A DNA stretch of 63,912 bases, the filler included, from Folioceros fuciformis (Eukaryota): NCBI GenBank assembly GCA_049999805.1. It is 5 parts of 5 records of this genome, joined end to end, with 100 filler letters (N's around TTAATTAATTAA, not from the genome) between each part and the next. Parts side by side here need not be neighbours in the genome. Positions count along the whole stretch, not along the records: positions 18,022 to 37,889 come from JBNGIO010006388.1; 4 more parts are not named here. One strand, given 5' to 3'. Every line of letters starts with the position of its first letter. Position 1 is the stretch's first letter. The notes beneath the pieces were generated by a model. It did not search any database. It was given only the letters and a program-made list of their open reading frames with translations, and was not told where the DNA came from. The position numbers and the translations under genes are program-made. Positions 17,922 through 62,776 of this stretch are shown one piece after another.

Positions 17922-18229
17922 NNNNNNNNNNNNNNNNNNNNNNNNNNNNNNNNNNNNNNNNNNNNTTAATTAATTAANNNNNNNNNNNNNNNNNNNNNNN
18001 NNNNNNNNNNNNNNNNNNNNNGCGGATTTATCACCGGAGATGACATCCTCAATACCTGTATCATCCCCGCAGCAGGCGATCACGGGCCAGCGCCATACTC
18101 TGCGTTTCGAAGAAGGGACAAACTGCGCCCCGGCTACTGTCTATTTCAGCCAGCTTCAGATGCCAGTATAGAAACTGATTGACAAACGGAAAGCTCACTA
18201 TACTGAACCATAATCGAGATTCATCGCCC

Positions 18230-18410
18230 TAACACCTCCCACGCAATTTTCAGCCTGAACCATGACTGGACCTTTCTGCGACAACCATGCCCGAAATTCG
18301 AAGGCAGACAGTCACACACGCCGAATGTGAGTCACGTCAACGCCAAAATGGATGACAGAATCGTCGGTTCCACCAAGTCCGGTGCGAACCACATGGACCA
18401 CCAAGGTGCA
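18230..18410 (-). pseudogene. Inverted remnant of the LRR-Roco family (also at 33700-33880)
   Basis: Reverse complement aligns to 23521-23635 (GTCCATGTGGTTCGCAC, TCTGTCATC, TCTGCCTTCG..TTTCGGGCATG). Confidence 0.75.
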
Positions 18411-21400
18411 AGATTCGCAAGGTGGTGTTCCTGGCCAAGCTCAGAAACGCGGCGAGGAGAGACGAAAGACAGGATAGAGCGCAGCCGCTGTTCTTCAGAC
18501 TCGTGTCCGCACAAGAGGGATAACAGACTCCGCAGACTCTCCCAAAATGAAGGCCGCCTCAAACAGGTCTCCATATTGCAAGGCAGTGAATGCATCTGTT
18601 TGCTGTGGCTAAGTATGCGATGTTATACACTTGGAATGTACAACTCCACTTTCCCCGATGTGAACAGGGGGAACAACGGTACGTACCATGGACAAAAACT
18701 GGAACATCTTAAGCAGACAGAACTGGCGCCAGGAGATGCTTTGTCTTGACCGCCGTAATCGAATGACCTTGATTAGTCCTAACAACTGCCTTTCCTTTTT
18801 CCTCTACCATGCTAAATCTATGCTTCGTGTCGGAAGCGTGTGCTCACGCTTTCAGCCTTACTCTCCTCTGGCATCCTGCAGGCATCCAAGAGCTACCATC
18901 GAGCCCCTCATATCTTGCTGCTCGTCCCCCCAGTTTGGCTTACGCACGTTGCTTTATCTAGAGGACCTCCTGGAGCTCCTCATCACGGAAGTCAGGCGAT
19001 GTGGAGCCATTGTCATCGTCACTGTGATCCAAGCAGAAAAACAAGCAGACGCAACACGTCCTGGTGACGCCCTCCTCTGGAAGGTCCACCAGGACACATT
19101 GAGCAAATTGGATTTCTTGCAAACATGCTGCAACTGCCAGCTTCATTGCCTCCTAAGAGCTGGCTCCTTGCGGTCACCTGAGCCAAGCCTCTTAAGAGCA
19201 AGAAGAGATGATATCATCCAGGCAGACATGGCTGGCAGGAGCACAAGGTGAACCAACGGATGCAACAGGCACCCACCGCACAAAGCTTCACTAGATAGGA
19301 CTCCTCTCAGGCGAGTGCAGTCAGGTGTCCAAGGCGTGGGGCCCCTGCATGAATCATTCTTCTGTCGAATGTACGCTCGGGACAAGATGAGTCGACAAGG
19401 GAAGGATATGGAGAATCTCCTGAGCACAACCTCATCGACGGAGCTGCAGTGACGGATGTGGTAGTAGCCATTGCAGCGTTTGAGCTCATGTGATGCGGCC
19501 GATGAAATAGTTTACTTGAGCAGTAGTTGCACACACAAAGACCTCGCAAGAAACTGAGAATTCCCTTCCTTGGCCTAAAGCCTCGAGTCTTGGCCATGGA
19601 ATCTTGATCTGCATGTAGGTCCGTAGGAGTTCCATCATGCCTTCCTTCCCCGCAGGCAGCTAAGGAGGCCAAGGCATCATGCATACAACACGGTGGGGAA
19701 AGGAGCGCACCCCATCCGAGAACATGATCCGTCCCTGGGAGACTACCTGGGGAGTTCCAATGTCCTGACGTCTGGAGACTGCTTCAAAGGGATGACAGCA
19801 TGGGCCAGCTCCCCTTCTCGTCCTGTTCGACTCTTTCAACTGCAACAACCGTTTGCGCATCGATGCACACGGTACCCATCTCTCACAGCAATGTGTCTCT
19901 TTTCAAGCCTTGACATGATCACCGTGCAGCTGTGACAGTCACTGCACATGCGTAGATTCTTCGTCATCACCAGAGGTGTCCCACTCGAAGTGTTCAACAG
20001 ACCAAACGCCAGAGCTAGGCTAGCTTCTCAGCATGCCCGCAAAGCGCATCTTCCTTTTCCTTCTCACGCACAGGCTTCAACACCAAAATTTGTGCGAGGA
20101 ACGTGGCCTCCTTCCTGCTTCAGTCGCGCATTCGTGCACAGTACCTTCAGCGCAATATCCTCTCTCCTCCCTCCCACCACAAATCTATGTACTTGCTTTT
20201 TCACGTGAGTAAACGAGGCGGTCCATCAGGTGGTTGGCATGCCTCGGGGCGGAGCAGAGAAGAGATGGTTGGAAGGAGAGTGGTTCGCAGATTCGTTAGG
20301 AGAGCGGCTGGCAGAGTGATTAGTTTCACATGTGATTTTATTAGTCCCAGCAGGGAAGTATAGGGAAATGATGGGGTGAGTGTAGTTGATTGTGTGTTGC
20401 TTCCTCGTACACTGTGCACCAGTTACTGTTCTTGTGGCAGGACGAGAGCAAAGAGACGCAGGGCACAAATCTTGAGGTTCGTGTGTTGGACACGAGTGAG
20501 AGATTCCGATGAAGTGGGTGGTTTCATGCTCTCTACTACAATCACAAAGCGACAAGTGCATTCCTGCTTTGAGTGACGTCCTGTGGTGAATTCCTGAACC
20601 ACGAACGCAGACACTGTTGAGGTTGCACGGACAAAGCAATGCAAAACAAGGTGAGTATCTGCACCTTTACGTTTCTTCCACAGCAGGATGCGAGTGTTCC
20701 AAGAAAACGTGTCTGACAAGCACAGCCTGTTGCAGGGGGCGAAACCTTCAGTCTCCGATGTGGCAAGGTGGTTCAGGTTCAAGTCGTAGGGAGAGGATTC
20801 GTGGTTCCGGTTGGTTTGGTAAGAGTATGGGACAGATTACACTGGAGGTGTGGGATGGAATCCCAACATGTCTAGAAGCACCTGCTGTGGCTCCGTAGCT
20901 CACCTTGATTTCCACAGCTGACCTGGAACTCCCTGTTCGTGTGTGTGCATGGGTCACAATCGAGGCACGATGCAGACGGTGGTGCATGCTTCAGAATTCG
21001 AAGCTGCAGGGTGCCCTAGGGGTCTCTGTAACGATGCTTGCCGATCATGCTTGTAGTGTAGAATCCTCAACACATCCACATGATTCCGTTGTTTCACTGA
21101 CTCGTGACATGAGTCGTGAATAAGAAACCCCCTTGGGCTTGCATACACAAGGCTCTCTGATGAAGCACGTTGACTCTCCATGTTGCTGTCTGCACTGCGC
21201 TCCACGCAGGGCAGGAAGGTTGGCAAGACTGCTGAGATGAGATGCATATGTATGCATTGACATAATTTGTCACCATGGTTCAGGCCAACATGTTGTCACG
21301 AGTTTCAAGGCGTGCTCCGTCCACGGCTCCTCCAGGCTGCGGTCCTGTGTCTACAGCTCTTGCAATCAGTGCCAAACCTAGGGTGCCAGTCAGCTAGCTC

Positions 21401-21455
21401 CCACTCGTTGAATAGGATGAGTGTGACCGTGAATTTCTGTTCGTACTGACAGCTC

Positions 21456-22200
21456 TCAATTGTGGTCTCCACACGAACAAACGCCACCCTTGAACTGATG
21501 AACTCTGTGGGCGTCTCTAATTATGATCTCCCTATTCTCAATCTTGGAGAAGATCTTCGTGCCTCTGTGGCAATGGTCACACATCCGCAGATTTTTCGTT
21601 ACCAGCAATGTGGTGCCTTCGGGTGTGTTGAAGGAGACCATAAGCTAATGCAAGCTTCTCAGCGGGTCCACCAATGCAATCACCACACTCCCATTCACCT
21701 CAAAGCAGCTGCCCGCCAAATCAGCATGTAACAGTTTCCCTGATGCCAAATCACCGATGTCTGCACAGGCTTTCAACACTGCCACAAACGTGTAGTCATT
21801 TGGTTTCACACTGGATTGCCGCGCCTGCAAATACAGTTTTATGGCCTGCTCAGCTTCCCCATGTTGCGCGTATGCTGTAATCATTGAAGTCCAGACAAAA
21901 CCATTGGGTGCCGGAAGTGTCCTGACCACCTGGTTGGCCTCTGCTAGACTACCATGAGAGGCATACATGGGGATGATGTGGTTTTCTAGAAAAATGTTGC
22001 GGCTGTACCCACGTCTGTCTGTATCCAAGGGCATGCACATACCGTCCCATGGCTAGGCTCTTGTGAGCCTAGCCACCTCTTCAACAAAGGATACCAAATA
22101 CCCACCGACACCTGGATTCCCTGCTTGCACATGAGGTCCAAAGCCCGCACTGCTTCGAACAGCTGGTCATCTTCGCACACTTGGCTGAAAGTACCAGCAA
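21456..22200 (-). pseudogene. PLS-PPR-DYW (KP-type) pseudogene with a large internal deletion
   Basis: N-terminal PPR motifs (MYASHG, FVWTSMITAYAQHG, YTFVAVLKAC) joined to AEKLALAYGLL/NTPEGTTLLVTKNLRMCDHCH...RDAHRVHQF..CSCGDHN. Several frameshifts. Confidence 0.85.
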
Positions 22201-22686
22201 AGCATCAGACCAAGCTAGCCATTACATGATACCAGCAAGAAGATTTGCCATATCCCAAAGATGTACAAGGATTCCATCTGTGAAAATAAGGATACCTGAC
22301 AAAATCATCCTTGTCCTTGCCGAACCCATGTTCCTCATCTACTAGGGAGGGCGCTGCAAAAGGAGCAGAGAAAACTTCGTCCAACCCTGAGAAGTCCTGC
22401 ACGAGCGCTCTTATCTAGGGNNNNNNNNNNGCTGTGTGTGTAGATGGTATGTGGCGAGGTGGGTGAGGTTGTGTGTAGCATTGTACCGGCGATTGTGGTG
22501 TAGATGCTTACAAAACGATGCTGTGTGTGCAGTATCGGTTAGACGTTCGAGATAATGCTGTGGGAGCTGGGGATTCCGTGGCTGGGCGAACGGCTTCACT
22601 GACTCCAGTTGATGTTGAGTTGTGTAGCGGGGCCTGTGGTGGTGGAGTAGGCGTGAGGAGGTGGTGGTAGGTTTGGCGGTGGAGGC

Positions 22687-25600
22687 ATGGGTAGTTGGGA
22701 GCAGAGCTGCGAGTGGCAGGATCTGGAGCCGCTTCCTGCTGGTCTGGTGAAGCTCCTGCGCGATCTTGGCGCAACAGGAGGGCCAGAGCCAGCGACGGCT
22801 TCCACAGCTGACGGCACTCGCCTACATCTTACATATTTTGATGGCAGTCTGGAGGAAGTGTACGGCGATTACGGGCCCTTTTTCAAGAGGGGTGTCGCAA
22901 CGGAACTAGAGAAGCAGACGGCGGCGGAGCAGAAGCGGTGGTTGGAAGTCCGGGTGCAGGTGCTGGCTGCCATCGCGCGATGCAGGACTCTGAAAATGAT
23001 CCACGTGCCCAGGGGCTGGTGCGTCGGGGAAGGCGGCCGCGAGAGGGAGTGGGAAGCCATGTGGGGCCCTCTGGAGGTGGCATCGAAAACCAACAATTCC
23101 TCTTTACAAGAGCTGTATTTGGGAGGGTGTCGGGGGCTGGGAGAAAGCGAGGCTGCGTGTGAGGCACTGGGTGGCGTCCTGGCCCACAGTCGTACGCTTC
23201 GCGTGCTGGATATCTCTGACACGGACATGGGGGCCAGCGGGCTGGTGCATCTGTGCTGCTACCTGGCAGAGAACCAGGAGTCCGCCCTCCGCGTCTTGAA
23301 CTTGTCTGGGAATCGGAGACTGGGCGGCGGCGGGAGTAGCGGAGGGGCCGCAGTTGTGGCGGCGCTGCTGAGTGAGAAAGTGTGTCCGTGCCTGCAGCAC
23401 TTGGACATGCGTGGGATAAGGTTGGACTGGGATGGAGCAGAAGTGATTGGGATGGGCCTGGCCAGGAACACCACCTTGCGAACGCTGCTCCTTGGTTGTG
23501 GGTTATTTGGTGGTGACAGGGACGCCTTGGTCCATGTGGTTCGCACTGGACTTGGTGTAGCCGAAGATTCTGTCATCGATTTTGGCGTTGACGTGGCTAA
23601 GATTGAGGAGATCTGCCTTCGCATTTCGGGCATGACACGTGGAATCGAGGCGGACGTTCACGTGTTTAGCAAGCCTAAAGGTGAGAGGAGATGGGTGGAA
23701 GGAAGTATGATGAAGAAAAGAATGGTGGATGAGGGGGACGGGGGTGGGATGCAAAGGAGATGCTGGAGGCAAGGGGATGTTGAAGAGCTGCAGCCGCGAA
23801 TTTCAGTGGCTTTGCAAGAGCTTGTGCTGGATCTGGGCGGGAGTATTAGTCTGTGCCCATCGCCACCCTCCTCCCAAATGCACCTACCTCACCCACGCCG
23901 GCAACGCACCCGCCTTCCAAACTTATATGAAGATGTCGCGTTCGTGGATTTCTTCGGTAGACTACCATGGCCGGTGGAGACGGAGGAAAGAAAGCGGTGG
24001 AGGCAGGTGCGGCAGGAGGTGTTGACTGCCGTTGGCAGGTGCGCCTCCCTCATCCATCTGGGATGGTCCGCTCATAAGTTCGGCGAGGAGGGGCGAGACG
24101 ATGCGGTGGAAGCACTGTTGGGAGGTTTGAAATCGATTGCCAACTACTCGGCCTTAAAATCGTTGGATTTGAATGGGTGCAGCGGTGTGGGGGGGAGTGA
24201 AGCTGGATGTGCTGCCCTAGGGGCCTTCCTACGCTCCAGTCCCAGCATCCACTATTTAACGTTGGATGGTACAGGCCTGCAGCCAGACGGGCTGGGTCAA
24301 TTGGTGCGGGGGCTGGAGGCGAATCCCCACCACCCTCTCCGCGCGCTGAGTCTGTCAAGGAACGAGGTGGGAGGTGGTGATGGCGGTGCAGCAGGAGGTG
24401 AGGGCGGGGCTTTGCAGGTAGCGAAGCTGCTTCAGGCCACCGTGTGCCCCAACCTGCAACTGCTGCACATCGTGGATATTTGGTTGGATTTGGAAGGTGC
24501 ACACATGATAGGTCAGGCTTTGGCGAAAAACTCGTCGGTGCGCCGGTTGGGTTTGGGAGGGAAGAATGACAAAGGGGTAGGGTTACTGCTTCGGACGGGA
24601 CTGGCGAGGGAGAGGGAGAGNNNNNNNNNNNNNNNNNNNNNNNNNNNNNNNNNNNNNNNNNNNNNNNNNNNNNNNNNNNNNNNNNNNNNNNNNNNNNNNN
24701 NNNNNNNNNNNNNNNNNNNNACCTACCTTGCCATCTACGGGATGACGGAAAAAGATGTGGACAATGTGAATGTCGTTTTGCGCACTAATCATGTGTTGGA
24801 ACAGTTGGTTCTTCTGGATTCCTTCTGTGGTGAAGCAAATGTGGGGTTGAAGATGAACGAAAATACTAGCATCAAGGATATAGAGTTATTCCGTGGAGAG
24901 TACTGCCAAAACTTCATCGAAATATTTCTGCACTCATTGCAAGACAACGCATCATTGGAAGAACTGGATCTCAGCTTTTGGGCTCCTTGGAACTATTCAG
25001 TAATGGAATCGAAGGCAGAATTCCTATACATCCAGTTGATGCAGCTGTTGGATAAAAATATATTCTTGAAAAAGATTTATAGTAACCTTCCAGCAGGAAA
25101 GCGCGCACTGATAGAGGAAAAATTACAGCGAAATAGGAGTCTGGCAACTTATCTCCCTCAATTCCGAGCACGATATCCGCAATGTACCACCCCAACCACT
25201 GGTAGAATTTTCCTTCTCGGTCCGCCAGCTGCAGGTAATAATGCGCTTTCTTTTTAATCGCTATTGAATGTGCCATCTGCAGGTAATAATGCGCTTTCTT
25301 TTTAATCGCTATTGAATGTGCCAGTTGCCAGGTAACTAAGTTGTGATTGAACATTTTTTCATGAAGGAAAAACAACCTTGCGCGAACAGATGTGCAAAAT
25401 CCAGGATCCTCAAGCAAAATCAAAAGACCGGAATACGTGGATGGAGTGTATACCGAGGCCATGGAAGAAAACTGAAGGCATAGCGGTGAAGTCCGTCCGC
25501 CATCCAGAAACGGGATTGCAAGTAAGCTTTTGGGATTTAGCTGGTCAAGATGAGTATCGCTTTCTGCATGACTACCTCTTCCCTAATATTCACCAAGCTT

Positions 25601-27575
25601 GTTTATTTTTGTTTGTATTTAATCCTTTTCAATTAAAAAAAAGTTAATTGAAATTAGTACACAATTTCAAAAACAATTTAGTTATTGGTTGAAGTTTATT
25701 TCATCTAATATGCAAAAAAGAGGGACAACAAAACCAAATGTATTTGTAATCATCAGTCATCTAGATAAGTTTGAAGAAGATAAAAAAATTTATTATGATA
25801 GTTTACAAGAAGAATTTATTAAACTAAAAGATATATATAAGAAACTTATTACATTTCCTAAGGAAATGCAAATGATAAATACTTATTCTCCAATAGATGT
25901 AGAGAACATATGGGCATACACTTCGAAAACACTAAAAAACTTGTGTGAGGAAGGAATTAAAGTGCCAGAAATGTGTGAGAAGGTATGTAGTGCCTTGATA
26001 AACTGGACACTACAAAACCAATCTCAACCCTTCATGACCCAAGATGAGTTTAAGAGCTTTTGTATGTGCACTTGTAAAGAATTAACTAGCTTGCAGGGTC
26101 TTGACCAAACCAACATTATAAATGCTATTTCGTCTTATCTACATGACAGTGGAAATATTCTTTATTTTAAAAAGTATAATATCAGAATAGTAAATCCAAA
26201 CTGGTTGACTGAGCACTTTGTAGGTCAACTTATACAAACAAATAGTCCTTTACGACAAGAAACTAATGACCAAGGATTTATTGAACAATACGATCTCCAA
26301 CTTTTCCTCAATAAGACATTTGTTAAAAATGCTAAGTACACTAATTTGAAAACCCAAGACTTGGTGAATATTATGGAGGAGTTAGAATTGTGCTACAAAG
26401 ACATTGTAGAAGATCGTCAAGGCTACTTCATTCCAACAACAATGCTGGACAAGGAGCAAGCTCTACAATGGTTATCTGCATCCAAGGATCAAGGAGTGCA
26501 ATACGAATATTTTGGACATCGATTGCAATGTGAAGATTTTTGTCTAATGGTCTTAACTGAGGGTTTTTTTCCACGGTTTCAGGTACACTTTACTTGTTTG
26601 TATGAAGTACTTACAATCAAGAATATGACAAAGATGTTAATCTACTTAGTGTAGCTACTTGCATTCACTCCTAGTGTTTTCTTGTTGTAGGTGGCCTTCC
26701 GAAAGTATCTCTTTTCTAAGCCCAACCTTGGAATGAAGGATCTTCTATACAAGTTAAGTCCCAACCTTATCTCAATGGCTTGTGACAACATCGATATTTT
26801 GATAGAATTGAGTGGTGGAGATGTGCCTGGTAAATATGTTGACATACTCATCAGATCATCAAAACGAAGTCCAAGTTTGGCTAATGCATTTGTGAAAGAT
26901 CACATCCTTGACCAGTTGAGAGCTTTTTGTGCTTCACCGAAAGGTTGCCCGGGAGTTACATTGGTGCAAGGTATCATCAATCCTTATTGTGTACGCAACT
27001 TGATACCTTGCAATGATAGACATGGGCAAGCATGGTTGGAAAAGGATTATAGAGAGTATCTTCTAGATGAAAAGCAAGCTTTGAAGTGTGGGGAAGGATA
27101 CTTTACTATGAGCAACATATCAGATCGTGTATATTATTGGCCTGAAATTCCTGGACATGTGTCACATCCAATATGCGTTCTTGTAGTAGAAATTTTGCCT
27201 GCACAAGACTTGAAGAACATAATGTCGGAGAATCATAAGTTTCACTACGATCAACATCATTCCATATCGAAACTAGCAAGTGATCTAACACATGGCAAGG
27301 AAAAAGGTGTAGGTGGAGATGATGGTTTGTCTATGACATCAAAAGAGACAATTACGAGCTCAAAGTCAAAAGATCCTTCTCCAAGTGTGACTTCAACAAG
27401 TTCTCCTTTTGTAAGGGGTCGTTCTTATGTTTTGGGTAGGCCAAGATTGGAACGCATGGAATATGTGGTGAACAAAATATACAACAATGTGAATAATATC
27501 AAGGACAACCAAAACATGCATCATGGGGAAGTTATGAGAAGTTATGAGCATGGTTGTATTTCATTTTATGAATGA
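22687..27575 (+). CDS. TORNADO1-like Roco protein: doubled N-terminal module + RNI-like LRRs, Roc GTPase, COR; one frameshift in A8 at 25635-25642
   Basis: LRRs such as LQELYLGGC, LRVLDISDT and LRVLNLSGN. Walker A GPPAAG/KTT spans intron 25235-25366, followed by TEGI, SFWDLAGQ and IISHLD. COR motifs YLHDSGNILYF, VNPNWL, GFFPRFQ/VAFR (intron 26583-26690) and CASPKGCPGVTLV. 100-N gap at 24621-24720. 3' end uncertain. Confidence 0.85.
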
Positions 27576-28269
27576 TGATGAGAAACAGTGTAATCCAATG
27601 TTAATTAGCATAACATTTTATGAATTGAATATTATGAAAGAGAGTTAAGACGCAAGCCTAAAATCCATATTTGTAGGTTGTGGGAACATTTGTTCACCTC
27701 GACATGCGGTGCAGAGGGTGCAGATATGTGGGCAAGCTCTTTTGTTGATGTTTTCCATCTTGATGCTAGCAGCCCCAATTGAACATAACATAGTGAAAGA
27801 AGGATTCTGGTCAAATCAAGTACAATGGCAAGACAACAGGTCTCAGAGGGTAACATATATCTTGTGCTCAAGATTCCTTGCTAAGCTGCGCTCTTTTAGT
27901 CAATTGCCTCCCTCTTGTCCTCCACTCCTAACAGCTGGTCTCATGAAGCAATTCGCATGTACAACAACACTTTAAAGGTGGCTATCTAGATTGACTATTC
28001 TTCCACCTCTCTGAGTTTATACTGATACGGAGATGCAAACCCAACATGGCCTCGGGATGCAGGGCAAATTTTCACATCTCCAAACATACAGCTTCAACTT
28101 TTAGTAGGCTCTCTCGAGATTGACAAATGGTTGAAGGAGACTAGAGCAAGAGGCCGTTGATGATGACCATCTCAAAACTCCAACAATAGGATGGCGGAAG
28201 GCTATGTGTAGCAAAACCTTTGGATCCTTGTTGTAAGACCTTGGGGCACATATTCACNNNNNNNNNNGT

Positions 28270-29180
28270 TCTCAGCGTGCATAGCCAGCAATCAGGGAGT
28301 ATTCCATGTCACCACAGCCTTTTTGTCCTTGCTGTCAACAGCCTGGCGGGCAGTCTCTCTTTACCACAATTTTCAGACCCAGCTATCAGGGCATTCCACA
28401 TCACAGTGACATTCTTTGTGGCCACGCTGTCAAAACCCTGTCGTGCATCTTTCAGTTCAACACGTTTTGCATACATGTCTACCAGGTTGGTGCCAAGAAA
28501 CAACTCGGGAGGAAAGCCACTCTGCACCACATCACAATCAAATGTTCTGTAAGATTTCCCTTGTCCATCAGCCAATCAAAGCTGTCAGAAATGCCTGAGT
28601 AAAAAACTAAGCTCAGTGGCAGACCTTCATTGAAGATTCCTCACCTGCGGCACTTATAGCACAGTCGTATGCCTGTATACGGTTTCCAGTGTATAGAAAC
28701 CCTTCTTTCATCTGCCAGAATGCAGTCACAACCCTCCTGGCACGGAACACCTAATGACACGTCCATCCAAAAGCCCAAACTCTTGTCGTGCATCTTTCGG
28801 TTCAACACATTTTGCATACGTCCACCAGGTTGGTGCCAAGAAACAACTCGGGAGGAAAGCCACTCTGCACCACATCACAATCAAATGTTCTGCCAGATGT
28901 CCCTTCTCAATCAGCCAACCATGAAATAATCAAAGCTGTCAGAAATTCCTGAGTAAAAAGCTAAGCTCACGGGCAGGCCTTCATTGAAGATTCCTCACCT
29001 GCGGCACTTACAGTACAATCGTATGCCCACATACGGTTTCCGGTGTATAGAAACCCTTTTTTCACCAGCCAAAATGCAGTCACAACTCTCCTGGCACGAA
29101 ACACCACATGACACGTCCATCCAAAAGCCCAAACTCCTTCAGGTTTCCCAAGAGGGCACGTTTGTCGCATCACATGTTTT
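28270..29180 (-). pseudogene. Tandemly repeated PPR fragments (~360-bp period)
   Basis: LGTNLVDMYAKR...NVTVMWNALIAG. CCAGGTTGGTGCCAAGAAACAACTCGGGAGG occurs at ~28480 and ~28825. Confidence 0.75.
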
Positions 29181-29689
29181 CTTATCATGATAACCTTCCA
29201 CCGTGCATGGCAACCTAGGTTACCACACATGGTTTCTTCCCATGGTGACCTATAGCCAGAAGGTTACCATGGCAAGGAAACTGTGATGCCATGGTAATCT
29301 TCCACCATGCATGTTTCCATGCCAGGGTAACGTAACCGTTGCACAATTCCGGTTCCGAGATTCTCTCCTCCAGAGTGTACTGGAAATGCGAGTGAAGAGG
29401 AGCCTTTGATTTTCCTCATCTACCCCCAAAATGCATGCTCTCCCAACACAGCCATTGCTTCCCTCTTGACTCCCGTTGTTACAAGCTGTCCCTCATCACC
29501 ACTCCCAGTATTACGTGCGTTGCGATCCTAGGATTGATCATCAAAACGTTGATGCTGATTGCGATGCACATGAGGACGAACCTGTATATATCATCAGGGA
29601 CAATTGGGCCCACCGCAGCCTAGGATCTTTATATTGGTGAGCACACAGTGTGGAAGAACCCGGATCAGAGATCGAATGTTGAAACAAGG

Positions 29690-45162: not shown

Positions 45163-47808
45163 ATGGCAGCGGAGTCGGACTATGACTGGCATGAGTTGCC
45201 GGAGAAGCTGCAACAGCTGCTGGTAGATCTGGAAGACAATGCCTTGTCCGAACTCCCGGACTTGGACGGAGAGGAGTACGGCAATTTCTTCGTATATGGA
45301 GCTTCGAACAGCAGCGATGGCAGGCACGGGCGAGTGCGGAATCGGGTATTGACAGCAATTGGCCAGTGCCGCAGTCTCCGAAGCCCGAAGATTATTGAGG
45401 AGTGGGAAATCGGCATTGATCGGGAGGATGAATGCGTGGTTCTGCTGGGTGCCCTGGCATCCAACCCTTCCCTGGAATCGCTTGATCTGAGTTGGTGCAA
45501 AGGTTTTGCTACGCTGGCGGGTTGCAAGGCCCTGGGCCAGCTTATTGCTTCCAGTCGCAGCTTGCGACGGCTGGAGGCACGCGGGATCGGGGTTGATGCC
45601 ACGGGACTTGGTGCTCTGGTCGAAGGCTTCTTCAACAAGGATTGTGTCCTAGAGTATTTGAACCTCAGCCGCAACAGCGTGGGAGATGCTGAAGGGGCAC
45701 AGCACCTGGCTCGCATGCTGGCCACCGCTCCCCGTCTCAAAACCCTGGATTTGCGTCGGATCGGCATGGATGAGGCGGGAGCCCAGTTTATTGCGAACGC
45801 TCTTCCACTCTGTGCCACGCTCCGGAAGCTTTATTTGGATGCTCTAGATCCAACTGACCAGGATACAGTCTGGGGTCTCGTGCAGGGTAGCCTGGGGCCC
45901 GTCAGCAGTGTGTTGAAACTTGCTTTCACACGTGCCGGTGCTGATGCTGCCATATCTGGGGTCACCAAGCTGATATTGGATATCAGCGACAGCGAGAAGC
46001 CAGGCCTGGCCGACGCGCTGTCCGGAATGTTGCGCACCAACGATCGTATCACGAAGCTTGAGATCAACCTTTCTGCCGTTGAGTGCGGTCTGGGCGCCTG
46101 GCGCCACAACTCCACCCTCTCTAAACTAAACTTGGTTGAGTTTCGCGACGGTGACAAATCTTTGAGTGAATTTTCGATGTCGTTTCTGGACTGCAAATCA
46201 TTACGTGTCCTGACTTTGCGTAGGATTTTTTGGCCCACTTTCATGAAAGCATTGATGCAGTCTTTGGAGAAAAGAACATCTTTGAATGAACTCAACATTG
46301 TGTCATGTGATGACCTCGATGATGAGCTCTCCAGAGAGTTGATGCAGTTCGTCCGAGCCAGCACCACTTTACGGAAGCTGAACATGGAGGGCACAGAGTG
46401 CGATTGGGAAGAGAATGCGGCCATCATCCGCGCAACGTTGGCACGAAATGCTACTCAAAGCGACCGCTGGGGGAGGATTGCGGAGGAGGAGAAGGAGGAG
46501 GATGACTGGAGCGCGATGCCGGCTGAGCTGCAACAGCTGGTGGAACATCTGGAAGGGAATGCCTTGTCCGAACTCCCCTACTGGGAGGATGAGTGTTACC
46601 GTGATTACTTCCCAGAGCCACATCCTTGGTGTATTATGGATGGCCACTACTTCGGAGAGCTTGGTCGTCGTAGGAGGCACTGGCGAGTGCGCAAGCGGGT
46701 ATTGACAGCTATTGGCCACTGTCGCAGTCTCGGCGACGACCTGACTTTCTTCGCGGAGTGGGAAATCGGCATCGTTCAGGAGGATGAATGCGCGGTTCTG
46801 TTGGGGGCCTTGGCATCTAACCCTTGCTTGGAAACTCTTTGTCTGGATGAGAGCCAAGGCTTTGGAACGCTGGCGGGTTGCAAGGCCTTGGGCCAGCTTA
46901 TTGCTTCCAGTCGCAGCTTGCGACGGCTGGAGGTAAGCTGTATAGGGCTTGATGCCACGGGACTTGGTGCTCTGGTTGACGGGTTCTTCAACAAGGATTG
47001 TGTTCTGGAGTATTTGAACCTAGGACACAACAGAGTGGGAAATGCTGAAGGGGCACAGCACCTGGCTCGCATGATGGCCACCGCTCCCCGTCTCAATACC
47101 CTGGATTTGTGTGGGATCGGCATGGATGAGGCGGGAGCCCAGTGTATTGCGAACGCTCTTCCGCTCTGTGCCACGCTCCGGGAACTTTATTTGGATGATA
47201 TATATTCGTGTGCCGGGTATTCCAGTTCGCGTGTCCTACAGGGCAGTCTGGGGTCCATTAGCACTGTGTTGAAACTTGCTTTCACCCGTGCTGATGCTGA
47301 TGCCGCCATATCTGGGGTCACCAAGCTGTCATTGTATATCCCGGACAAGGGGGAGCCAGGCCTGGCTGACGCGCTGGAGGGAATGTTGCGCACCAACGAT
47401 CGTATCACGGAGCTTAGTATCCAAGGTTTTTCGAGTGGGATGGACGGTATTTCGTATGGGATGGACGGTTCTTCGAGTGGGATCGAATACCGCCTGGACG
47501 TTGATGATGAATTTCCGATGTTTTCTCTGGAATGCAAATCATTACGTATCCTCACTTTGATGGGTATTTGTTGGCCCTCTTTCATGAAAGCGTTGTTGCA
47601 GTCTTTGGAGAAAAATACATCTTTGAAGGAGCTCAGGATTATGAGGTGTTATCCTCTCGACGATTACCTCTTCAGAGAGTTGATGCAGTCCCTCCAAGTG
47701 AACACCACTTTACAGAAGATGGACATAGTGTCCACAGACTGGGGTGTTGAGGGAAAGCAGGCAATCATCGACGCGACATTGGAACGCAATGCTACTCACA
47801 AGGCCTAG
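45163..47808 (+). CDS. RNI-like LRR ORF of two tandem ~440-aa modules; N-terminal part of a Roco gene truncated by TAG
   Basis: ATG at 45163. Modules start DWHELPEKLQQLL and DWSAMPAELQQLV, and both end ATLxRNAT. Roc motifs follow the stop. Confidence 0.8.
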   Translation: MAAESDYDWHELPEKLQQLLVDLEDNALSELPDLDGEEYGNFFVYGASNSSDGRHGRVRNRVLTAIGQCRSLRSPKIIEEWEIGIDREDECVVLLGALASNPSLESLDLSWCKGFATLAGCKALGQLIASSRSLRRLEARGIGVDATGLGALVEGFFNKDCVLEYLNLSRNSVGDAEGAQHLARMLATAPRLKTLDLRRIGMDEAGAQFIANALPLCATLRKLYLDALDPTDQDTVWGLVQGSLGPVSSVLKLAFTRAGADAAISGVTKLILDISDSEKPGLADALSGMLRTNDRITKLEINLSAVECGLGAWRHNSTLSKLNLVEFRDGDKSLSEFSMSFLDCKSLRVLTLRRIFWPTFMKALMQSLEKRTSLNELNIVSCDDLDDELSRELMQFVRASTTLRKLNMEGTECDWEENAAIIRATLARNATQSDRWGRIAEEEKEEDDWSAMPAELQQLVEHLEGNALSELPYWEDECYRDYFPEPHPWCIMDGHYFGELGRRRRHWRVRKRVLTAIGHCRSLGDDLTFFAEWEIGIVQEDECAVLLGALASNPCLETLCLDESQGFGTLAGCKALGQLIASSRSLRRLEVSCIGLDATGLGALVDGFFNKDCVLEYLNLGHNRVGNAEGAQHLARMMATAPRLNTLDLCGIGMDEAGAQCIANALPLCATLRELYLDDIYSCAGYSSSRVLQGSLGSISTVLKLAFTRADADAAISGVTKLSLYIPDKGEPGLADALEGMLRTNDRITELSIQGFSSGMDGISYGMDGSSSGIEYRLDVDDEFPMFSLECKSLRILTLMGICWPSFMKALLQSLEKNTSLKELRIMRCYPLDDYLFRELMQSLQVNTTLQKMDIVSTDWGVEGKQAIIDATLERNATHKA

Positions 47809-48400
47809 TGGCCTTTGCTTTCGGAGGGGCACGAGGCTGTGAAGCCCAGGGTCGGGTCTTTTCCTGTGCGGTGCACCTTACGCACGGAAGACCACTCTCC
47901 GCACCACATGATTACCGCATGGCACGCATCACAAACACACACAAGTACAGCAGCCGCATCACCCAACCACAACGGTACTGTCACCAGAACAGAAGGAAAG
48001 GAAATCGAGGTGCTGCGCAACGACGATGAGATGGAAGACTACTTGTTCCCGAGCTTCAATCAGACGTGTTTTCCTGTTCACCTTCAACCCACTTGATGCC
48101 GACAAGCCTGGCGAACCCCCTTCCGTCCCATGAAACGCTGCTGGACAAGTTCAGAAACGGCTTTAAGTTTTGGCTTAGATTCATCCACTCTAATTCTCGC
48201 AACGTGGGTTCCTGTTTGCCTCGGGTATTTGTGGTTATCACTCATAAGGATGAGATGGAGGATGGGGACGCTGAATTACTAGTAGATGTGCTGCAACCAG
48301 TCATGACACAGTTGGCCAAGGATTTTGAGGAGGCACTCCTTATCACGACAACGCCTCTATTCTTCATGGATGGTCGATGCGAAGAGACTGTGCAGCCCGA
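47809..48400 (+). pseudogene. Degenerate Roc GTPase domain continuing the LRR ORF
   Basis: Across frames: LFLCGAPYARKTT (Walker A G to R), RTEGKEIEVL, DYLFPSFNQ, FLFTFNP, FWLRFIHSNS and PRVFVVITHKD. The WDLAGQ segment is deleted. Collinear with 25200-25770. Confidence 0.85.
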
Positions 48401-48409
48401 AGAGGGTCC

Positions 48410-48990
48410 ACACGGAACAGGGTACGTTCTCTCAAGGTAGAGAAGACAAGGCAGAGAAGCTTTACGTTGAAGATGATATTTTGGAGCCCATCGCTGAATG
48501 CAAGCTTTTGGCAAACAACCCTAAGACCTTTCTCATAAATGCTTGTCGAGGCACTGGCAATCTCGTCAGAAGCATGAAAGCGCAGGAGTCAAGCACCACC
48601 AACCCTGCAACCAGCAGCAAAGCCAACGTGTCAGACGTTGAGGGAAGCCAAGTTGTGAGCAAGAGAGTTCGACCATTGTCCTCTGTGAAAGACCTCCTAA
48701 CCGATTTCTCCACCAGTCCTGGAGATGAATCTTTGAGAGATGTGGAGGTAGGCACAAACTTCATCATAGCTTTGATGGAAGCCATCGTGGAGGGCTCTGG
48801 AACAGAAGGTGTCGTGAGCATTCTGACAAGCGTGATTGGCAAGGTCACGGGCAAGGAGGTCCAACACAGAACCAAAGACGGGACTGTGAGAAGAAATATC
48901 AGTGTCCTGAGTTGCGCATGCGCAGTACACGTACCAGAAAGCTGTACTGGTCTCGACCACCCCAGACTCCTGTCATGCCTGGCTTGAGTC
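48410..48990 (+). pseudogene. Caspase-like domain copy 1 (C-terminal p20, linker, p10) abutting the Roc domain
   Basis: CKLLANNPKTFLINACRG (Cys codon 48544-48546), DLLTDFSTSPGDESLRDVEVGTNFIIAL and SILT..IGKV. The His region is deleted and there is a frameshift near 48882. Confidence 0.88.
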
Positions 48991-49915
48991 AGTAGCATGT
49001 TGCCAGGGCCTGTGAGGCCTTCAATCAAGTGTCAGGTATGCTCTTCAGCTACCATACTGTTGGTGTATCAAATACTGCTTCTGATAGACCTTGTCGCTTC
49101 TCCCTTGCCCGGAATTCTTTCCTGTTGGGCAAGAGAGACCTCTCACAGCGTCGTGATGGGGATGAACAAATGATGCCCCATGGAGGCTATGCGTAGGGAG
49201 GGAAGGACGTTCGCGCTTGTACACACACACTTGCGGCTCTTGGTTTTCAGAGGCAAGTGAGTGATTAAGATTTGCGGCCTTGTGGCTTTCACAATACTTG
49301 CACAATGTCAGAATGTATCTTTCATCTTCCCGACCAGCCGTAGCTTGGTCCCTCAGTGAAATCGCGTGTGCACCTTCTGCCTTCAAGTCACAGTGACACC
49401 AGGGAAGAACGAGGGGTAGCTCACTACTTGTGTTAACTGGATTCCCTTTTCTAGCGCGTCACCTGTAGCACATGCACAGGTATAGCTTTTAGTCATCCAA
49501 TCGAGGAGCAGACGTGCGCCATGGGTGCCTCCCTTCCTGTGGCAGGCCATAAGAACCGGATCACGGAGATGAGAAACCATTAGCCCCTTCAGGAGCATGG
49601 CAGCAGGACATGCCGAAGGTCCGCCCTTCATCACCATCTGTCCCCTGCTCGGTTTGCCAAATCGGTCTTCGGATGATGGTTAATCGTCTGACAATCCAGT
49701 TTCTACAGCGTTACGATGACAAGCACAGCCTGAGCACACTTGCCTGGTCACTGCCTTTTCAATCTAACTTGCATCTTGCATCTCTGTACTTCCCAGTCCC
49801 AACTACCAGGCAAGAAAAGCTTCCAGCCATCGCTCGCCGGCATGTAGCGGGGCCCTGGGCCTGCCTGTTGCATCCTGCCGCACCTCACGGAGGCTTCAAG
49901 TACAGTATTTGCAAT

Positions 49916-50250
49916 TGAGGGTTGGTACCGTGGGAGCGAATGCCCTCGCCAAAGGCTTTTGTGGCGGGGAACTTGGACTTGCGGACGAACCAGGTGGGAG
50001 GTGCTTCGGCACCTGACCCGCATTCTGGCGTCTGCTCCCGAACTCAAGAATTTGCCACAGCATGACACCGGCATGGATGTGGATTGGGATGCTCTTCCCC
50101 TCTGTAGCACGCTCCACAAGTTTGGAACACGGCGTTGCATTCTCGGGTCGCAACCCCAGCATTCTCCGCAGGAGCGATGCGGTCAGATTCGCTCTCACCC
50201 GCACTGATGGGAACGCCTCCGCGTCTGGAATCACAGAGCTTCCTTGGGCT
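49916..50250 (+). pseudogene. LRR-Roco family remnant
   Basis: RHLTRILASAPELKNL..GMD..ALPLCSTLHK matches QHLARMLATAPRLKTL..GMD..ALPLCATLRK of the 45163 ORF. Confidence 0.75.
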
Positions 50251-55785: not shown

Positions 55786-55910
55786 TTGCCCCGTTACAGG
55801 CGGATTTCTGGAACTGCAATCCCAGGCCGGTGTGGGGTAATCCCCGGAACGGCATTCTCATTCCCAACTGCTGCACGCTGGAGGCGCTGATGCGCAAGCC
55901 CGAGCCGCTG
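55786..55910 (+). pseudogene. Third PPO 5' fragment
   Basis: GCCCCGTTACAGGCGGATTTCTGGAACTGCAATCCCAGG...GCAAGCCCGAGCCGCTG matches 51285-51407. Confidence 0.85.
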
Positions 55911-56104: not shown

Positions 56105-57183
56105 ATTTCCTCCGACTCGGATCTGCCTCGTTACTTCCACGTCTGGCCAGCTGCAGGAAGGCCTGAAGCCAGTCTACGCAGTGCACAAGAGGATTCCATT
56201 AACTTCTTAAGTTGCGGTGAGGTTGAAAATGTTTTGAAGGCGTGGCGCACAAGAATGCAGTCCGATGCAAGGAGTGGCCCTTCAGCTGCGAAAAGGCACT
56301 CACAGGGAGCGACTCAAATGGATTCAATGCAGGAATCAGCATACCCCAACGAAAGGGTGAAAGCAGTTGAGCGGAGAGGTCTAGCAATGGTTATAAATAT
56401 GGAAGAAGACAGACCTAGAGGAGCGGTAGACAGAGAGCGACTTCAAGCTCTGCTCGAGACCTTGAAGTTTGATACAGACATCGTGGTGAACCATCCACCT
56501 AAGGAAGTGAAATCAAGGTTGGAAAAAATTCTCAGGGTCCAATACCTAGCAGAGGACAACTGCTTTCTGTTTTGCATCAACGCCCATGGTGGGACTGATG
56601 AAAACGGAAGGCAGTACGTTCGCTTAGGTGTAAAAGACAAGGCCGGGAAGATGTTGAAGATGATATTTTGAAGCCCATCGCTGAATGCAAGCTTTTGGCA
56701 AACAAGCCCAAAGGTTATTCTCATAAATGCTTGTCGAGGCAATGGCAATCTTGTCAGAGGCATGAAAGCGCAGGAGTCAGCACTGCCAACCCTGCCACTA
56801 CCAGCAAAGCCAAGGTGTCAGAGGTTGAGGGAAGCCAGGTTGTCGGCAAGAGACTTCGACCCCTTTATTCTGTGAAAGACTGCCTCACAGTTTTCTCCAC
56901 CAGTCCTGGAGATGAGTCTTTGAGAGATGTGGAGGAAGGCACAAACTTCATCATAGCTTTGATGGAAGCCATCGTGGAGGGCTCTGAAACAGAAGATGTC
57001 TTGAGCATTCTGACAAGACTGATTGGCAAGGTCACGGGCAAGGAGGTCCAACACAGGACCAAAGACGGGTGCTATGAGAAGAAATATCAGTGTCCTGAGT
57101 TGCGCATGCGCAGCACACTTACCAGAAAGTTATACCGGTCTCAACCACCCCAGACTCCTGTCATGCCTGGCTTGAGTGAGTAG
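56105..57183 (+). pseudogene. COR-like tail plus a complete caspase-like domain (copy 2) with three small frameshifts
   Basis: Open frame 56105-56671: RYFHVWP...FLSCGEVENVL, linker, RGLAMVIN, DRPRGAVD, CFLFCINAHG (His codon 56585-56587). Then KPK/VILINACRG (Cys codon 56732-56734), DCLTVFSTSPGDESLRD..GTNFI, EDVLSILT, QCPE..STLTRKLY. Confidence 0.9.
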
Positions 57184-62676: not shown

Positions 62677-62776
62677 NNNNNNNNNNNNNNNNNNNNNNNN
62701 NNNNNNNNNNNNNNNNNNNNTTAATTAATTAANNNNNNNNNNNNNNNNNNNNNNNNNNNNNNNNNNNNNNNNNNNN

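What the first reader, a model, noticed from the sequence alone, without database searches (positions are those of the whole stretch)
22687..27575. TORNADO1-like Roco with a different C-terminus: an expanded, modular family
Seen: this Roco ends in a Ser/Thr-rich linker and a coiled-coil-like tail rather than a caspase. At least five family members or remnants occur in 64 kb (18.3k, 22.7k, 45.1k, 49.9k, 56.1k). Established: TRN1 is a low-copy developmental gene in Arabidopsis. Inference: birth-and-death evolution with effector swapping, as in immune receptor families.
Basis: partly seen in the sequence, partly recalled or inferred. Interest (0 to 1): 0.75.

Follow-up and report, generated by a model that had tools for sequence, protein, structure and literature searches.

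The report
Expressed plant Roco GTPase, tail truncated
A land-plant gene for an LRR-GTPase switch protein of the TORNADO1/LRRK2 kind is real and spliced, but its odd tail is the family's own linker cut short, not a new output module, and it lies among decayed relatives that carried a caspase-like domain.

Summary
The gene at 22687-27575 (+) is real. It has three exons. Both introns appear as GT..AG joints only in run X3, whose RNA label is a guess. It encodes two RNI-type LRR modules, a Roc GTPase with intact G motifs, COR-A and COR-B, then 46 S/T-rich disordered residues and one short helix.

The window does not give an unbroken protein. A 100-N gap lies in the LRR region, and an A8 run breaks the frame. 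An extra A seen in runs X2 and X3 restores an 871-codon frame.

The tail is not a swapped-in effector. It aligns with the linker and the start of the long helix that relatives carry before a conserved C-terminal domain of about 200 residues. That domain is missing here and anywhere in the window.

Of the five family pieces claimed, two are Roco loci: this gene and a degraded LRR-Roc-caspase copy at 45-49 kb. One is a frameshifted caspase-only fragment, and two are LRR scraps.

The target branches outside the probable TORNADO1 clade (AU p 1e-5). The family is large in Marchantia, with at least 64 locus tags of one assembly. One relative has COR-B joined to a caspase domain.

Birth-and-death evolution and modularity hold for the family. 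Effector swapping does not hold for this gene. The true 3' end remains unconfirmed.

The parts
22687..24620 (+). Exon 1, part before the gap: start codon, LRR module 1 and the first ~240 residues of LRR module 2 (RNI/ribonuclease-inhibitor type)
   Evidence: Open frame. Pfam LRR_6 4.8e-9 and LRR_1 1.2e-5. The N-terminus aligns with the N-termini of the 45k ORF and of Marchantia P0004. The two modules are 41-43% identical to each other. GC3 is 0.61-0.67.
24621..24720 (.). 100-N assembly gap inside LRR module 2
   Evidence: One X3 contig joins 24620 to 24816 (depth 508.5, shorter side 49 letters). The roughly 35 residues missing from a ~440-residue module fit a gap of about 100 nt.
24721..25234 (+). 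Exon 1, part after the gap: end of LRR module 2 and start of Roc up to the first base of the second P-loop glycine codon (GPPAAG|KT)
   Evidence: Aligns to Marchantia P0004 residues 421-549. Donor CAG|GTAATA. GC3 0.50.
25235..25366 (+). Intron 1 (132 nt, phase 1, GT..AG), holding a 47-nt tandem duplication (25229-25275, 25277-25323) that repeats the donor site
   Evidence: Joint 25232->25365, GT..AG with the cut 2 further right, in X3 only (depth 415.8; 0 in X1 and X2). Duplication coordinates.
25367..26582 (+). Exon 2: Roc GTPase (KTTL of the P-loop, DLAGQ at 25534-25548, SHLD in the G4 place) and COR-A (26010-26438)
   Evidence: Pfam Roc 2.8e-5 on 25360-25647. COR-A 1.2e-15 on P0002 residues 130-272. 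32% identity over 708 residues to P0037, which carries Pfam Roc and COR-A.
25635..25642 (+). A8 run where the window's frame breaks; an extra A restores it
   Evidence: Frames differ on the two sides. 'Put in behind 25634: A' in X2 (8.79 of 8.79 depth) and X3 (229.6 of 340.8), not in X1 (0 of 24.8). With it, 871 codons are open; chance about 7e-29.
26583..26690 (+). Intron 2 (108 nt, phase 0, GT..AG)
   Evidence: Joint 26580->26689, GT..AG with the cut 2 further right, X3 only (depth 235.3). Sequence.
26691..27305 (+). Exon 3, first 205 residues: COR-B plus a long helix
   Evidence: 105 representative proteins match this part at E<=1e-3. AlphaFold2 pLDDT is about 90 over residues 1-205. The top structural match is the C. 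tepidum Roco COR, 3dpu_B (Z 7.7, rmsd 3.1, 124 aligned, model 1-175). LRRK2 COR-B scores Z 5.2-5.5.
27306..27443 (+). S/T-rich disordered linker (46 residues, 16 S/T)
   Evidence: pLDDT 36-51. It aligns with the variable S-rich linker of relatives.
27444..27575 (+). Short helix (21 residues), 22 unaligned residues and the stop codon: the start of the family's long pre-domain helix, cut short
   Evidence: Helix 252-272 at pLDDT 60-76. Alignment with 12 relatives. 12 of the top 45 BLAST alignments reach within 27 residues of the end and leave 157-231 residues of the relative unmatched.
45163..47808 (+). Neighbouring family member: ORF with two LRR modules (61% identical to each other)
   Evidence: Pfam LRR_6 2.8e-8. 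31-38% identical to the target's modules.
47858..48398 (+). Neighbour's Roc domain, degraded: P-loop reads GAPYARKT followed by a stop, pieces lie in three frames, and no DxxG is seen
   Evidence: Three-frame reading. tblastn of relatives.
48307..48987 (+). Neighbour's C-terminal half of a caspase-type Peptidase_C14 domain (keeps INACRG). COR and the histidine half are absent
   Evidence: Pfam PF00656 1.4e-11, profile positions 93-213 of 233. PDB sequence hits are caspases at E 0.0017-0.05.
56105..57183 (+). Caspase-type domain alone (INAHGG and INACRG present), read across two frames with several shifts
   Evidence: Pfam PF00656 3e-5 (profile 1-86) and 1.7e-10 (profile 109-233) in overlapping ORFs. 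Three-frame reading. 48422-49919 matches 56614-58091 at 86%.
18286..18400 (-). Inverted 115-nt LRR scrap; a second identical copy lies at 33755-33869
   Evidence: 83% identity to 23528-23634, E 1.8e-21. The block 18022-22420 equals 33491-37889 at 100%.
49852..50123 (+). LRR scrap (36+47 residues)
   Evidence: tblastn with the 45k ORF: 42-47% identity, E 2.3e-6.

Best explanation
The locus encodes an expressed, spliced and probably functional member of the land-plant LRR-Roc-COR (Roco, TORNADO1-like) family. It has about 1,500 residues or more: two RNI-type LRR modules, a Roc GTPase with intact P-loop, DxxG and G4-place motifs, then COR-A and COR-B. It ends inside the family's own linker/helix region. 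It therefore lacks the conserved C-terminal domain of about 200 residues that most relatives carry, and it has no caspase.

Shown: the domains, the splicing, the open frame with the A9 allele, the missing domain, and a placement outside the TORNADO1 clade.

Inferred: it works as a GTP-controlled switch. The LRRs bind a partner or ligand. Roc-COR changes conformation and dimerises through COR-B, as in solved Rocos. Having no output domain of its own, it acts through partners, for instance as a sensor, regulator or decoy for full-length paralogues.

It lies in a small cluster of diverged, mostly decayed family members. This fits birth-and-death turnover of a multi-copy family.
For: Gene model:
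- Both predicted introns appear as GT..AG joints in run X3 only (depths 415.8 and 235.3; 0 in DNA runs X1 and X2). An X3 contig bridges the N gap.
- An extra A at the A-run is present in X2 and in most of X3. It gives 871 open codons in DNA of about 38% GC, where the chance of that is about 7e-29.

Domains:
- LRR_6 4.8e-9 and COR-A 1.2e-15.
- Motifs GPPAAGKT, DLAGQ and SHLD.
- 32% identity over 708 residues to P0037, which carries Pfam Roc and COR-A.
- COR-B fold: 3dpu_B is the top of 48,161 chains, Z 7.7, 124 aligned.

Truncation:
- The alignment with 12 relatives shows the family order linker, long helix, conserved domain. The target stops about 20 residues into the helix.
- 12 of the top 45 BLAST alignments reach the target's end and leave 157-231 residues of the relative unmatched.
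- An HMM of the conserved domain, built from the 110 of 219 relatives that pass a motif filter, finds nothing among 1,919 window ORFs (best E 0.45).

Family placement:
- In the tree the target sits on a 1.25 branch outside a 98* clade that holds the probable TORNADO1 group and the Marchantia clade.
- AU p 1e-5 against a clade with the TORNADO1 group.
Against: - The window as assembled has a frameshift. Run X1 (same sample as X2) shows only the A8 form, and about a third of X3 depth lacks the extra A. A null allele or noise at a homopolymer cannot be told apart.
- The RNA label of X3 is a guess.
- Pieces of the reads that lie before the gap differ 2-9% from the window, while pieces after it are identical. 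The bridging contig may therefore come from a near-copy.
- GC3 falls from 0.65 to 0.30 along the gene. The PPR, lectin and 45k ORFs show no such fall. This could mean relaxed constraint or a mosaic origin.
- The 3' end is not pinned down. One DNA contig each in X1 and X2 matches only from 27547 onward, and a weak donor lies at 27552/27553. The real protein may end differently.
- Pfam Roc is below its cutoff on the only contiguous piece that could be tested.
- The tree is a quick LG+G4 search with midpoint rooting. The target has a long branch and a skewed composition. The AU group was tested after the tree was seen.
Confidence: 0.6

Rival explanations
1. One reading: this gene has acquired a different C-terminal effector (S/T linker plus coiled coil) by module swapping.
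For: The tail has no Pfam match and no caspase. Other family members do carry different ends.
Against: The linker and helix align with the relatives' own linker and the start of their long helix. Homology of representative proteins runs to residue 257 of the 294-residue last exon. AlphaFold2 gives disorder plus one 21-residue helix of middling confidence. The best heptad register is 8 of 14. Nothing is added; something is missing.
Confidence: 0.08
2. The C-terminus seen in the window is incomplete. The mRNA is spliced or the assembly is broken near 27.55 kb, and the real protein carries the family's C-terminal domain or another one encoded outside the assembled sequence.
For: One DNA contig each in X1 and X2 matches only from 27547 rightwards, with 29 unlike letters before it. 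A possible donor CATG|GTTGTA lies at 27552/27553. Homology to the family is lost at about the same place. The scaffold is a patchwork with 17 N runs and an exact 4.4-kb duplicate.
Against: No C-terminal-domain or caspase coding sequence lies anywhere downstream in the window, although this gene's introns are only 108-132 nt. No joint from this place to elsewhere in 22000-28400 is listed for X3. The donor is weak.
Confidence: 0.2
3. The gene is a decaying pseudogene that is still transcribed.
For: Frameshift in the assembled sequence and in part of the reads. Loss of the C-terminal domain. AT-shifted codons, GC3 0.30. A long branch of 1.25. Its neighbours at 45-49k and 56k are clearly degraded.
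Against: 871 codons are open with the A9 form, which is not expected by chance (7e-29). The G1, G3 and G4-place motifs and the family's near-invariant residues are kept. Both introns are removed precisely. Other AT-rich ORFs (DUF26-like, GC3 0.30) lie in the same window, so low GC3 is not in itself decay.
Confidence: 0.12
4. The 'gene' is a scaffolding chimera: a GC-rich LRR contig and an AT-rich Roc-COR contig from different loci were joined across the 100-N gap.
For: The composition breaks at the gap (GC3 0.65 before, 0.48 then 0.30 after). Read pieces before the gap differ 2-9% from the window and those after it are identical.
Against: An X3 contig joins 24620 to 24816. The two sides are consecutive parts of one LRR module, and the missing ~35 residues fit the gap size. 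The sequence after the gap begins with LRR sequence in the expected order.
Confidence: 0.1

Closest known systems
Arabidopsis TORNADO1 (TRN1) and its seed-plant orthologues
   Same: Same order: N-terminal RNI-type LRRs, then Roc, COR-A and COR-B (review passage PMC4104024). The probable TRN1 group (P0103 and 5 others; nearest Atlas cluster named 'protein TORNADO 1', score 0.98) aligns over Roc-COR.
   Different: The target lies outside the clade holding that group (98*; AU p 1e-5). It has two LRR modules. It lacks the conserved C-terminal domain that the group has. It lies beside other family copies instead of standing alone.
Marchantia 'hypothetical protein' Roco family (e.g. MPTK1_3g01450, P0004)
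   Same: These are the best named relatives: 27% identity over 90% of the COR piece and 28-31% over 700-880 residues. They share the N-terminal motif, the LRR-Roc-COR order, the S-rich linker and the long helix. Some members are also truncated: P0004 has 1033 aa and P0183 has 88 residues left after the alignment.
   Different: Most Marchantia members (1,390-1,600 aa) carry one LRR module and the full C-terminal domain. The family there is very large. 118 of the 120 listed hits are M. polymorpha and 2 are M. paleacea. 64 hits carry locus tags of one assembly (MPTK1_, counted by eye), many with neighbouring numbers on chromosomes 4 and 8.
Prokaryotic AP-GTPase (Roc)-COR counter-invader proteins (Kaur, Burroughs, Iyer, Aravind 2021, PMC8195603)
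   Same: N-terminal fast-evolving LRRs, Roc-COR switch, variable C-terminal position that can hold a caspase, and several copies per genome with different ends (passage read). The window's family shows the same logic: the usual domain, a caspase, or nothing.
   Different: Those are bacterial and are predicted to act against invaders. Here the host is a land plant and no role in defence was tested. The target itself has an empty effector position.
Brown-algal ROCO genes proposed as immune receptors (PMC11378527)
   Same: An expanded eukaryotic ROCO family with a modular LRR part, read as candidate immune receptors (title and start of abstract from the search listing; one passage).
   Different: A different lineage. 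That paper has no occurrence of land plants, bryophytes, caspase or Marchantia in its text.
MFHAS1 / C. tepidum Roco / LRRK2 Roc-COR core
   Same: MFHAS1 and plant Tornado are named as the simplest LRR-Roc-COR arrangement without a further enzyme domain (PMC4104024). The target's COR-B model matches the C. tepidum COR (3dpu_B, Z 7.7) and LRRK2 COR-B (Z 5.2-5.5).
   Different: Sequence identity in these matches is 6-8%. The Z scores are middling. No kinase or other output domain is present. COR-B dimerisation is assumed from the solved bacterial protein and is not shown here.

Membership tests
Roco (Roc-COR) proteins | Roc GTPase domain with P-loop, DxxG and G4 motifs | tested here: met
   GPPAAGKT (split by intron 1), DLAGQ at 25534-25548 and SHLD in the G4 place. 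32% identity over 708 residues to P0037, which has Pfam Roc. Pfam Roc on the only contiguous 95-aa piece gives 24.8 bits, E 2.8e-5, just under the 27-bit cutoff.
Roco (Roc-COR) proteins | COR-A directly after Roc | tested here: met
   PF16095 1.2e-15, 58 bits (cutoff 35.3), P0002 residues 130-272.
Roco (Roc-COR) proteins | COR-B after COR-A | tested here: met
   P0003 residues 1-~200 match 105 representative proteins. Of 91 of these scanned with Pfam, 38 show Roc and/or a COR domain, among them COR-B in P0043 at 4.3e-8. The top structural match is the C. tepidum COR, Z 7.7, 124 aligned. Pfam COR-B itself does not hit P0003.
Roco (Roc-COR) proteins | Multidomain protein with a repeat region beside Roc-COR | tested here: met
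   Two RNI-type LRR modules; LRR_6 4.8e-9.
TORNADO1 orthologue group | Falls inside the TORNADO1 clade in a Roc-COR tree | tested here: not met
   It lies outside a 98* clade holding the 6 probable TRN1 rows. AU p 1e-5 against one clade. The TRN1 label of the group rests on an Atlas cluster name, which is a lead and not an alignment to a named sequence.
TORNADO1 orthologue group | Conserved C-terminal domain after the linker and helix (xHLxCE ... AWxCxxC) | tested here: not met
   Absent from the ORF and from all 1,919 window ORFs (best E 0.45). Alignment. Caveat: the 3' end is unconfirmed.
TORNADO1 orthologue group | Single or low copy number | tested here: inconclusive
   A second Roco locus and fragments lie in the same 64 kb. 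A genome-wide count is not possible: no genome is held and no close paralogues are in the database.
NLR-like / AP-GTPase immune receptors | Variable effector domain in the C-terminal position | tested here: not met
   The target has no domain there. At family level there are two types: the conserved domain, and caspase (P0102 and the 48k and 56k fragments).
NLR-like / AP-GTPase immune receptors | Diversifying LRRs and response to microbes | not testable with these tools
   It needs paralogue or population sequences and infection RNA-seq. Only a hint was seen: all 40 listed differences between reads and window lie at or before 24553 (298 more not shown).

The most novel reading that the evidence does not exclude
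Non-seed land plants may keep large, tandemly arrayed families of LRR-Roc-COR GTPases that act as a second, GTPase-switched class of intracellular immune or cell-death receptors beside the NLRs. Their C-terminal outputs would be interchangeable and would include a true caspase-type (C14A-like) protease, which land plants are thought to lack. On this reading the window shows such a cluster in turnover. The target would be an output-less sensor, regulator or decoy that works with full-length paralogues. Its GC-rich multi-copy LRR modules would be reshuffled or converted against a single-copy AT-rich Roc-COR core.
Probability: 0.2. Interest if true: 0.85.

Novelty: new member of a known kind. Interest (0 to 1): 0.45.

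Why it matters
A 2014 review states that among photosynthetic eukaryotes only flowering plants have ROCO genes, with TORNADO1 as a developmental gene (PMC4104024). This window and the public protein data show otherwise. A land plant that is not close to Marchantia has a cluster of diverged Roco genes. Marchantia has at least 64 annotated loci in one assembly. Some family members end in a caspase-type domain whose closest solved relatives are animal caspases.

My searches found no paper on this. If the family acts in defence or cell death, it would be a GTPase-based counterpart of plant NLRs. It would also tie plant biology to the LRRK2/DAPK and bacterial Roc-COR conflict systems.

The target gene itself is a modest case: an expressed family member without an output domain. 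It is useful mainly as a natural 'switch-only' form.

Tried and rejected
- Whole-genome census: no genome is held for this window.
- Word search with the COR piece against longer proteins found only one Marchantia protein.
- A profile of the two LRR ORFs found only generic RNI-type LRR proteins, 12 hits with the best at 1.4e-11, and no paralogues. Neither the organism nor its family size could be fixed.
- Foldseek against the PDB gave nothing at E<=0.001 for the last-exon model or for the P0007 model.
- The VIA search of the 487-residue P0007 model was filled by COR-B and long-helix matches. The fold of the family's C-terminal domain was therefore not tested.
- Complex prediction on two copies of COR-B (residues 1-210) gave no verdict: score 0.00, and the alignment was not used. 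This says nothing either way.
- The look-up of sequencing runs: no RNA holder is listed on record; X3 is 'RNA?' by guess.
- X3 depth is 251 in 27350-27563 and 8-17 in the next three bins. Contigs cannot show an RNA end, so I do not use this as evidence on the 3' end.
- The 29-letter loose end at 27547 is nowhere in the window.
- ORFs downstream of the stop (27649-27972, 28190-28549, 28285-28599, 29574-29918) have no Pfam family.
- Earlier scan notes: none for this genome or for this sequence.
- A general 5'-to-3' GC3 decline as the cause of the composition shift was rejected, because three other long ORFs show none.
- The Cnops 2006 paper could not be read.
- Supplements of the papers cited were not opened.

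Full report
**Setting.** The window is a draft scaffold of a land plant.
- It carries a PLS-class PPR gene with an E motif (9104-12361), a double legume-lectin ORF, a polyphenol-oxidase gene, DUF26-like ORFs and copia/gypsy integrase ORFs.
- It has 17 runs of N.
- No whole genome is held for it, and no earlier notes exist for it.

**Gene model.** Three ORFs on the + strand (22657-25257, 25623-26654, 26691-27575) make one gene.
- The ATG at 22687 opens an N-terminus that aligns with those of the 45k ORF and of Marchantia relatives.
- Exon 1 ends in the P-loop at CAG|GTAATA. Exon 2 begins after ATGAAG and gives GPPAAG|KTTL.
- The second intron runs from CAG|GTACAC to TTGTAG| and is 108 nt long.
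- I laid the contigs of three coded runs on 22000-28400. X1 and X2 are DNA runs of one sample. X3 is from another study, and its RNA label is a guess.
- Both introns appear as GT..AG joints in X3 only: 25232->25365 at depth 415.8 and 26580->26689 at depth 235.3, with none in X1 or X2. This is what spliced mRNA gives.
- The window itself is not open throughout, for two reasons.
  - A 100-N gap (24621-24720) lies in the LRR region. One X3 contig joins 24620 to 24816. The two sides are consecutive parts of one LRR module, and the missing ~35 residues fit the gap.
  - The frame shifts at the A8 run 25635-25642. An extra A there is present in X2 (8.79 of 8.79 depth) and in X3 (229.6 of 340.8), but not in X1 (0 of 24.8). 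With it the part after the gap reads as 871 open codons. The chance of that is about 7e-29 at this base composition.

**Domains.**
- LRR region: Pfam finds LRR_6 (4.8e-9). There are two modules of about 400-440 residues, 41-43% identical to each other.
- Roc: it keeps GPPAAGKT, DLAGQ and SHLD. Pfam Roc on the one contiguous 95-aa piece is just under its cutoff (24.8 against 27 bits).
- COR-A is clear (1.2e-15).
- COR-B: the last exon (P0003) has no Pfam hit. Its first ~200 residues match 105 representative proteins at E<=1e-3, 34 of them at <=1e-10. Of 91 of these that I scanned, 38 show Roc and/or a COR domain (23 of 33 at E<=1e-4, 15 of 58 at E<=1e-3), and one shows a caspase.
- AlphaFold2 on the last exon with 58 relatives gives pLDDT of about 90 for residues 1-205.
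- Of 48,161 chains, the best structural match is the COR domain of C. tepidum Roco (3dpu_B, Z 7.7, rmsd 3.1, 124 aligned, model 1-175). LRRK2 COR-B scores Z 5.2-5.5. These Z values are middling, but the match is the expected one and covers the domain.

**The tail.**
- Residues 206-251 of the last exon hold 16 S/T in 46 residues and are disordered in the model.
- Residues 252-272 form one helix at pLDDT 60-76. The last 22 residues are unstructured.
- I aligned the tail with the C-terminal 560 residues of 12 relatives from all branches. The family order after COR-B is a variable S-rich linker, a long helix (67 residues in the P0007 model), then a conserved alpha/beta domain of about 200 residues with xHLxCE, H.V..Q.G and AWxCxxC motifs.
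- The target has the linker and about the first 20 residues of the helix, then stops.
- Twelve of the 45 best BLAST alignments reach within 27 residues of its end and leave 157-231 residues of the relative unmatched.
- An HMM of the conserved domain finds nothing in any of 1,919 window ORFs (best E 0.45). The HMM was built from the 110 of 219 relatives that pass a crude motif filter.
- No caspase sequence lies near the gene.
- The tail is therefore the family's own linker cut short, not a new module.

**The 3' end is not secure.**
- One DNA contig each in X1 and X2 matches only from 27547 rightwards.
- A weak donor lies at 27552/27553.

**Family pieces in the window.**
- The ORF 45163-47808 has two LRR modules. 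They are 61% identical to each other and 31-38% identical to the target's modules.
- Behind it the Roc domain is broken. The P-loop reads GAPYARKT and runs into a stop, the pieces lie in three frames, and no DxxG is seen.
- COR is absent there. The reading passes into the C-terminal half of a Peptidase_C14 domain (1.4e-11, profile 93-213).
- At 56105-57183 a whole C14 domain with INAHGG and INACRG is spread over two frames.
- 48422-49919 and 56614-58091 are 86% identical.
- The 18.3k piece is a 115-nt inverted LRR scrap. It lies in a 4,399-nt block that occurs twice at 100% identity between N runs, which is probably an assembly duplicate.
- The 49.9k piece is a short LRR scrap.
- Because the assembly has at least one indel that disagrees with the reads, frameshifts alone are weak evidence of decay. 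The missing COR and the missing half of the caspase at 45-49k are stronger evidence.

**Family outside the window.**
- A profile of 15 relatives found 177 proteins at E<=1e-10, of which 120 are listed.
- 118 of those are Marchantia polymorpha 'hypothetical proteins' and 2 are M. paleacea. By my count 64 carry locus tags of one assembly, many with neighbouring numbers on chromosomes 4 and 8.
- P0103 and five similar proteins are probably TORNADO1 proper. The nearest Atlas cluster is named 'protein TORNADO 1' (score 0.98), which is a lead only.
- In a quick LG+G4 tree of 53 Roc-COR rows the target sits on a long branch (1.25). It lies outside a 98* clade that holds this group, the Marchantia clade and others.
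- Forcing the target together with the TORNADO1 group costs 52.7 log-likelihood units, AU p 1e-5. The test was run after the tree was seen.
- One relative, P0102 (427 aa), joins a family-type COR-B to a full caspase domain (1.1e-27). Its best solved relatives are animal caspases (3.4e-13; all 60 chains shown are caspases). It matches the 56k fragment.

**Composition.**
- GC3 is 0.61-0.67 before the gap, 0.50 just after it and 0.29-0.38 in Roc-COR and the tail.
- The PPR, lectin and 45k ORFs show no 5'-to-3' fall.
- AT-rich ORFs do exist elsewhere in the window: the DUF26-like ORFs have GC3 0.30.
- Read pieces before the gap differ 2-9% from the window, and those after it are identical. All 40 listed differences lie at or before 24553, with 298 more not shown.
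- The LRR half therefore looks multi-copy and the Roc-COR half single-copy. Gene conversion among LRR modules is a possible cause but was not tested.

**Mechanism (inferred).** The protein is an LRR sensor joined to a Roc-COR GTPase switch that dimerises through COR-B, as in solved Rocos. With no output domain it would signal through partners or modulate full-length paralogues. Nothing here tests a role in defence.

**Literature.**
- Review PMC4104024 (passages read) says only flowering plants have ROCO genes. It describes Tornado1 as LRR plus ROC-COR with a leaf-patterning role.
- PMC8195603 (passages read) describes bacterial LRR-Roc-COR proteins with variable C-terminal effectors, including caspase. 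An earlier scan note pointed me to it.
- For PMC11378527 on brown-algal ROCOs I saw the search listing and one passage.
- Seven searches found no paper on Roco expansion or Roco-caspase fusions in non-seed plants. Papers outside the held library may exist.

Noticed in passing
18022-22420 and 33491-37889: A 4,399-nt block occurs twice at 100% identity, each copy bounded by N runs. It is probably the same contig placed twice in the scaffold. It holds a PPR fragment ORF (21645-22052, minus strand; PPR_2 3.4e-13).
   Followed up: partly
17922-18021, 37890-37989, 60202-60301, 62677-62776: Four places show the same odd pattern: 44 N, 12 bases, 44 N. It may be a scaffolder or masking artefact.
   Followed up: no
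48307-48987 and 56105-57183; protein P0102: Caspase-type (not metacaspase-like by best PDB hits) Peptidase_C14 modules with INAHGG and INACRG motifs lie in a land-plant scaffold. A database relative has COR-B joined to a caspase domain, and its best solved relatives are animal caspases 3/6/7 (E 3.4e-13). P0102 itself has ISGHG where the catalytic Cys motif should be.
   Followed up: partly
25229-25323: A 47-nt tandem duplication repeats the end of exon 1 together with the donor site of intron 1. An X1 DNA contig skips 70 nt here (25244->25315) with 20 other letters between. X3 has a second joint, 25235->25458 (TA..AG, depth 106.5).
   Followed up: no
22667 -> 25030: A joint skipping 2,362 nt (TA..AC, 'AT' between) is seen in X1 (depth 10) and X3 (61.6). 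It would remove the start codon and both LRR modules. The shorter side is only 29-30 letters, so it may be a graph artefact or an LRR-less copy.
   Followed up: no
27547 and downstream to 28257: One DNA contig each in X1 and X2 matches only from 27547 on, preceded by 29 letters found nowhere in the window. Summed contig depth in the three bins right of 27564 is higher than in most bins of the gene body in both DNA runs (warns that this is no copy number). It may be a junction with repeated DNA at the point where family homology ends.
   Followed up: partly
protein P0026 (database): A 1,704-aa representative protein has an NB-ARC domain (1.7e-9) and an LRR at its front. It is 33% identical over 1,224 residues to Roco relatives, including the COR-B region. 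It is either an NB-ARC/Roco fusion or a merged gene model.
   Followed up: no
38289-38900 and 40869-41488 (minus-strand ORFs 38351-38986, 40936-41529): Two 84%-identical AT-rich ORFs (GC3 0.30) lie in an AT-rich stretch. One has a weak Stress-antifung (DUF26) match at 3.3e-4.
   Followed up: no
9104-12361 and 29714-31489 (minus): A 1,085-aa PLS-type PPR ORF with an E motif has internally repeated units at 73-76% nt identity. An inverted PPR fragment is 72-74% similar to it.
   Followed up: no
51060-52399, 53758-55222, 55787-56048: A polyphenol-oxidase (tyrosinase) gene has partial duplicates of its parts and flanks at 80-97% identity, lying between the two caspase fragments.
   Followed up: no
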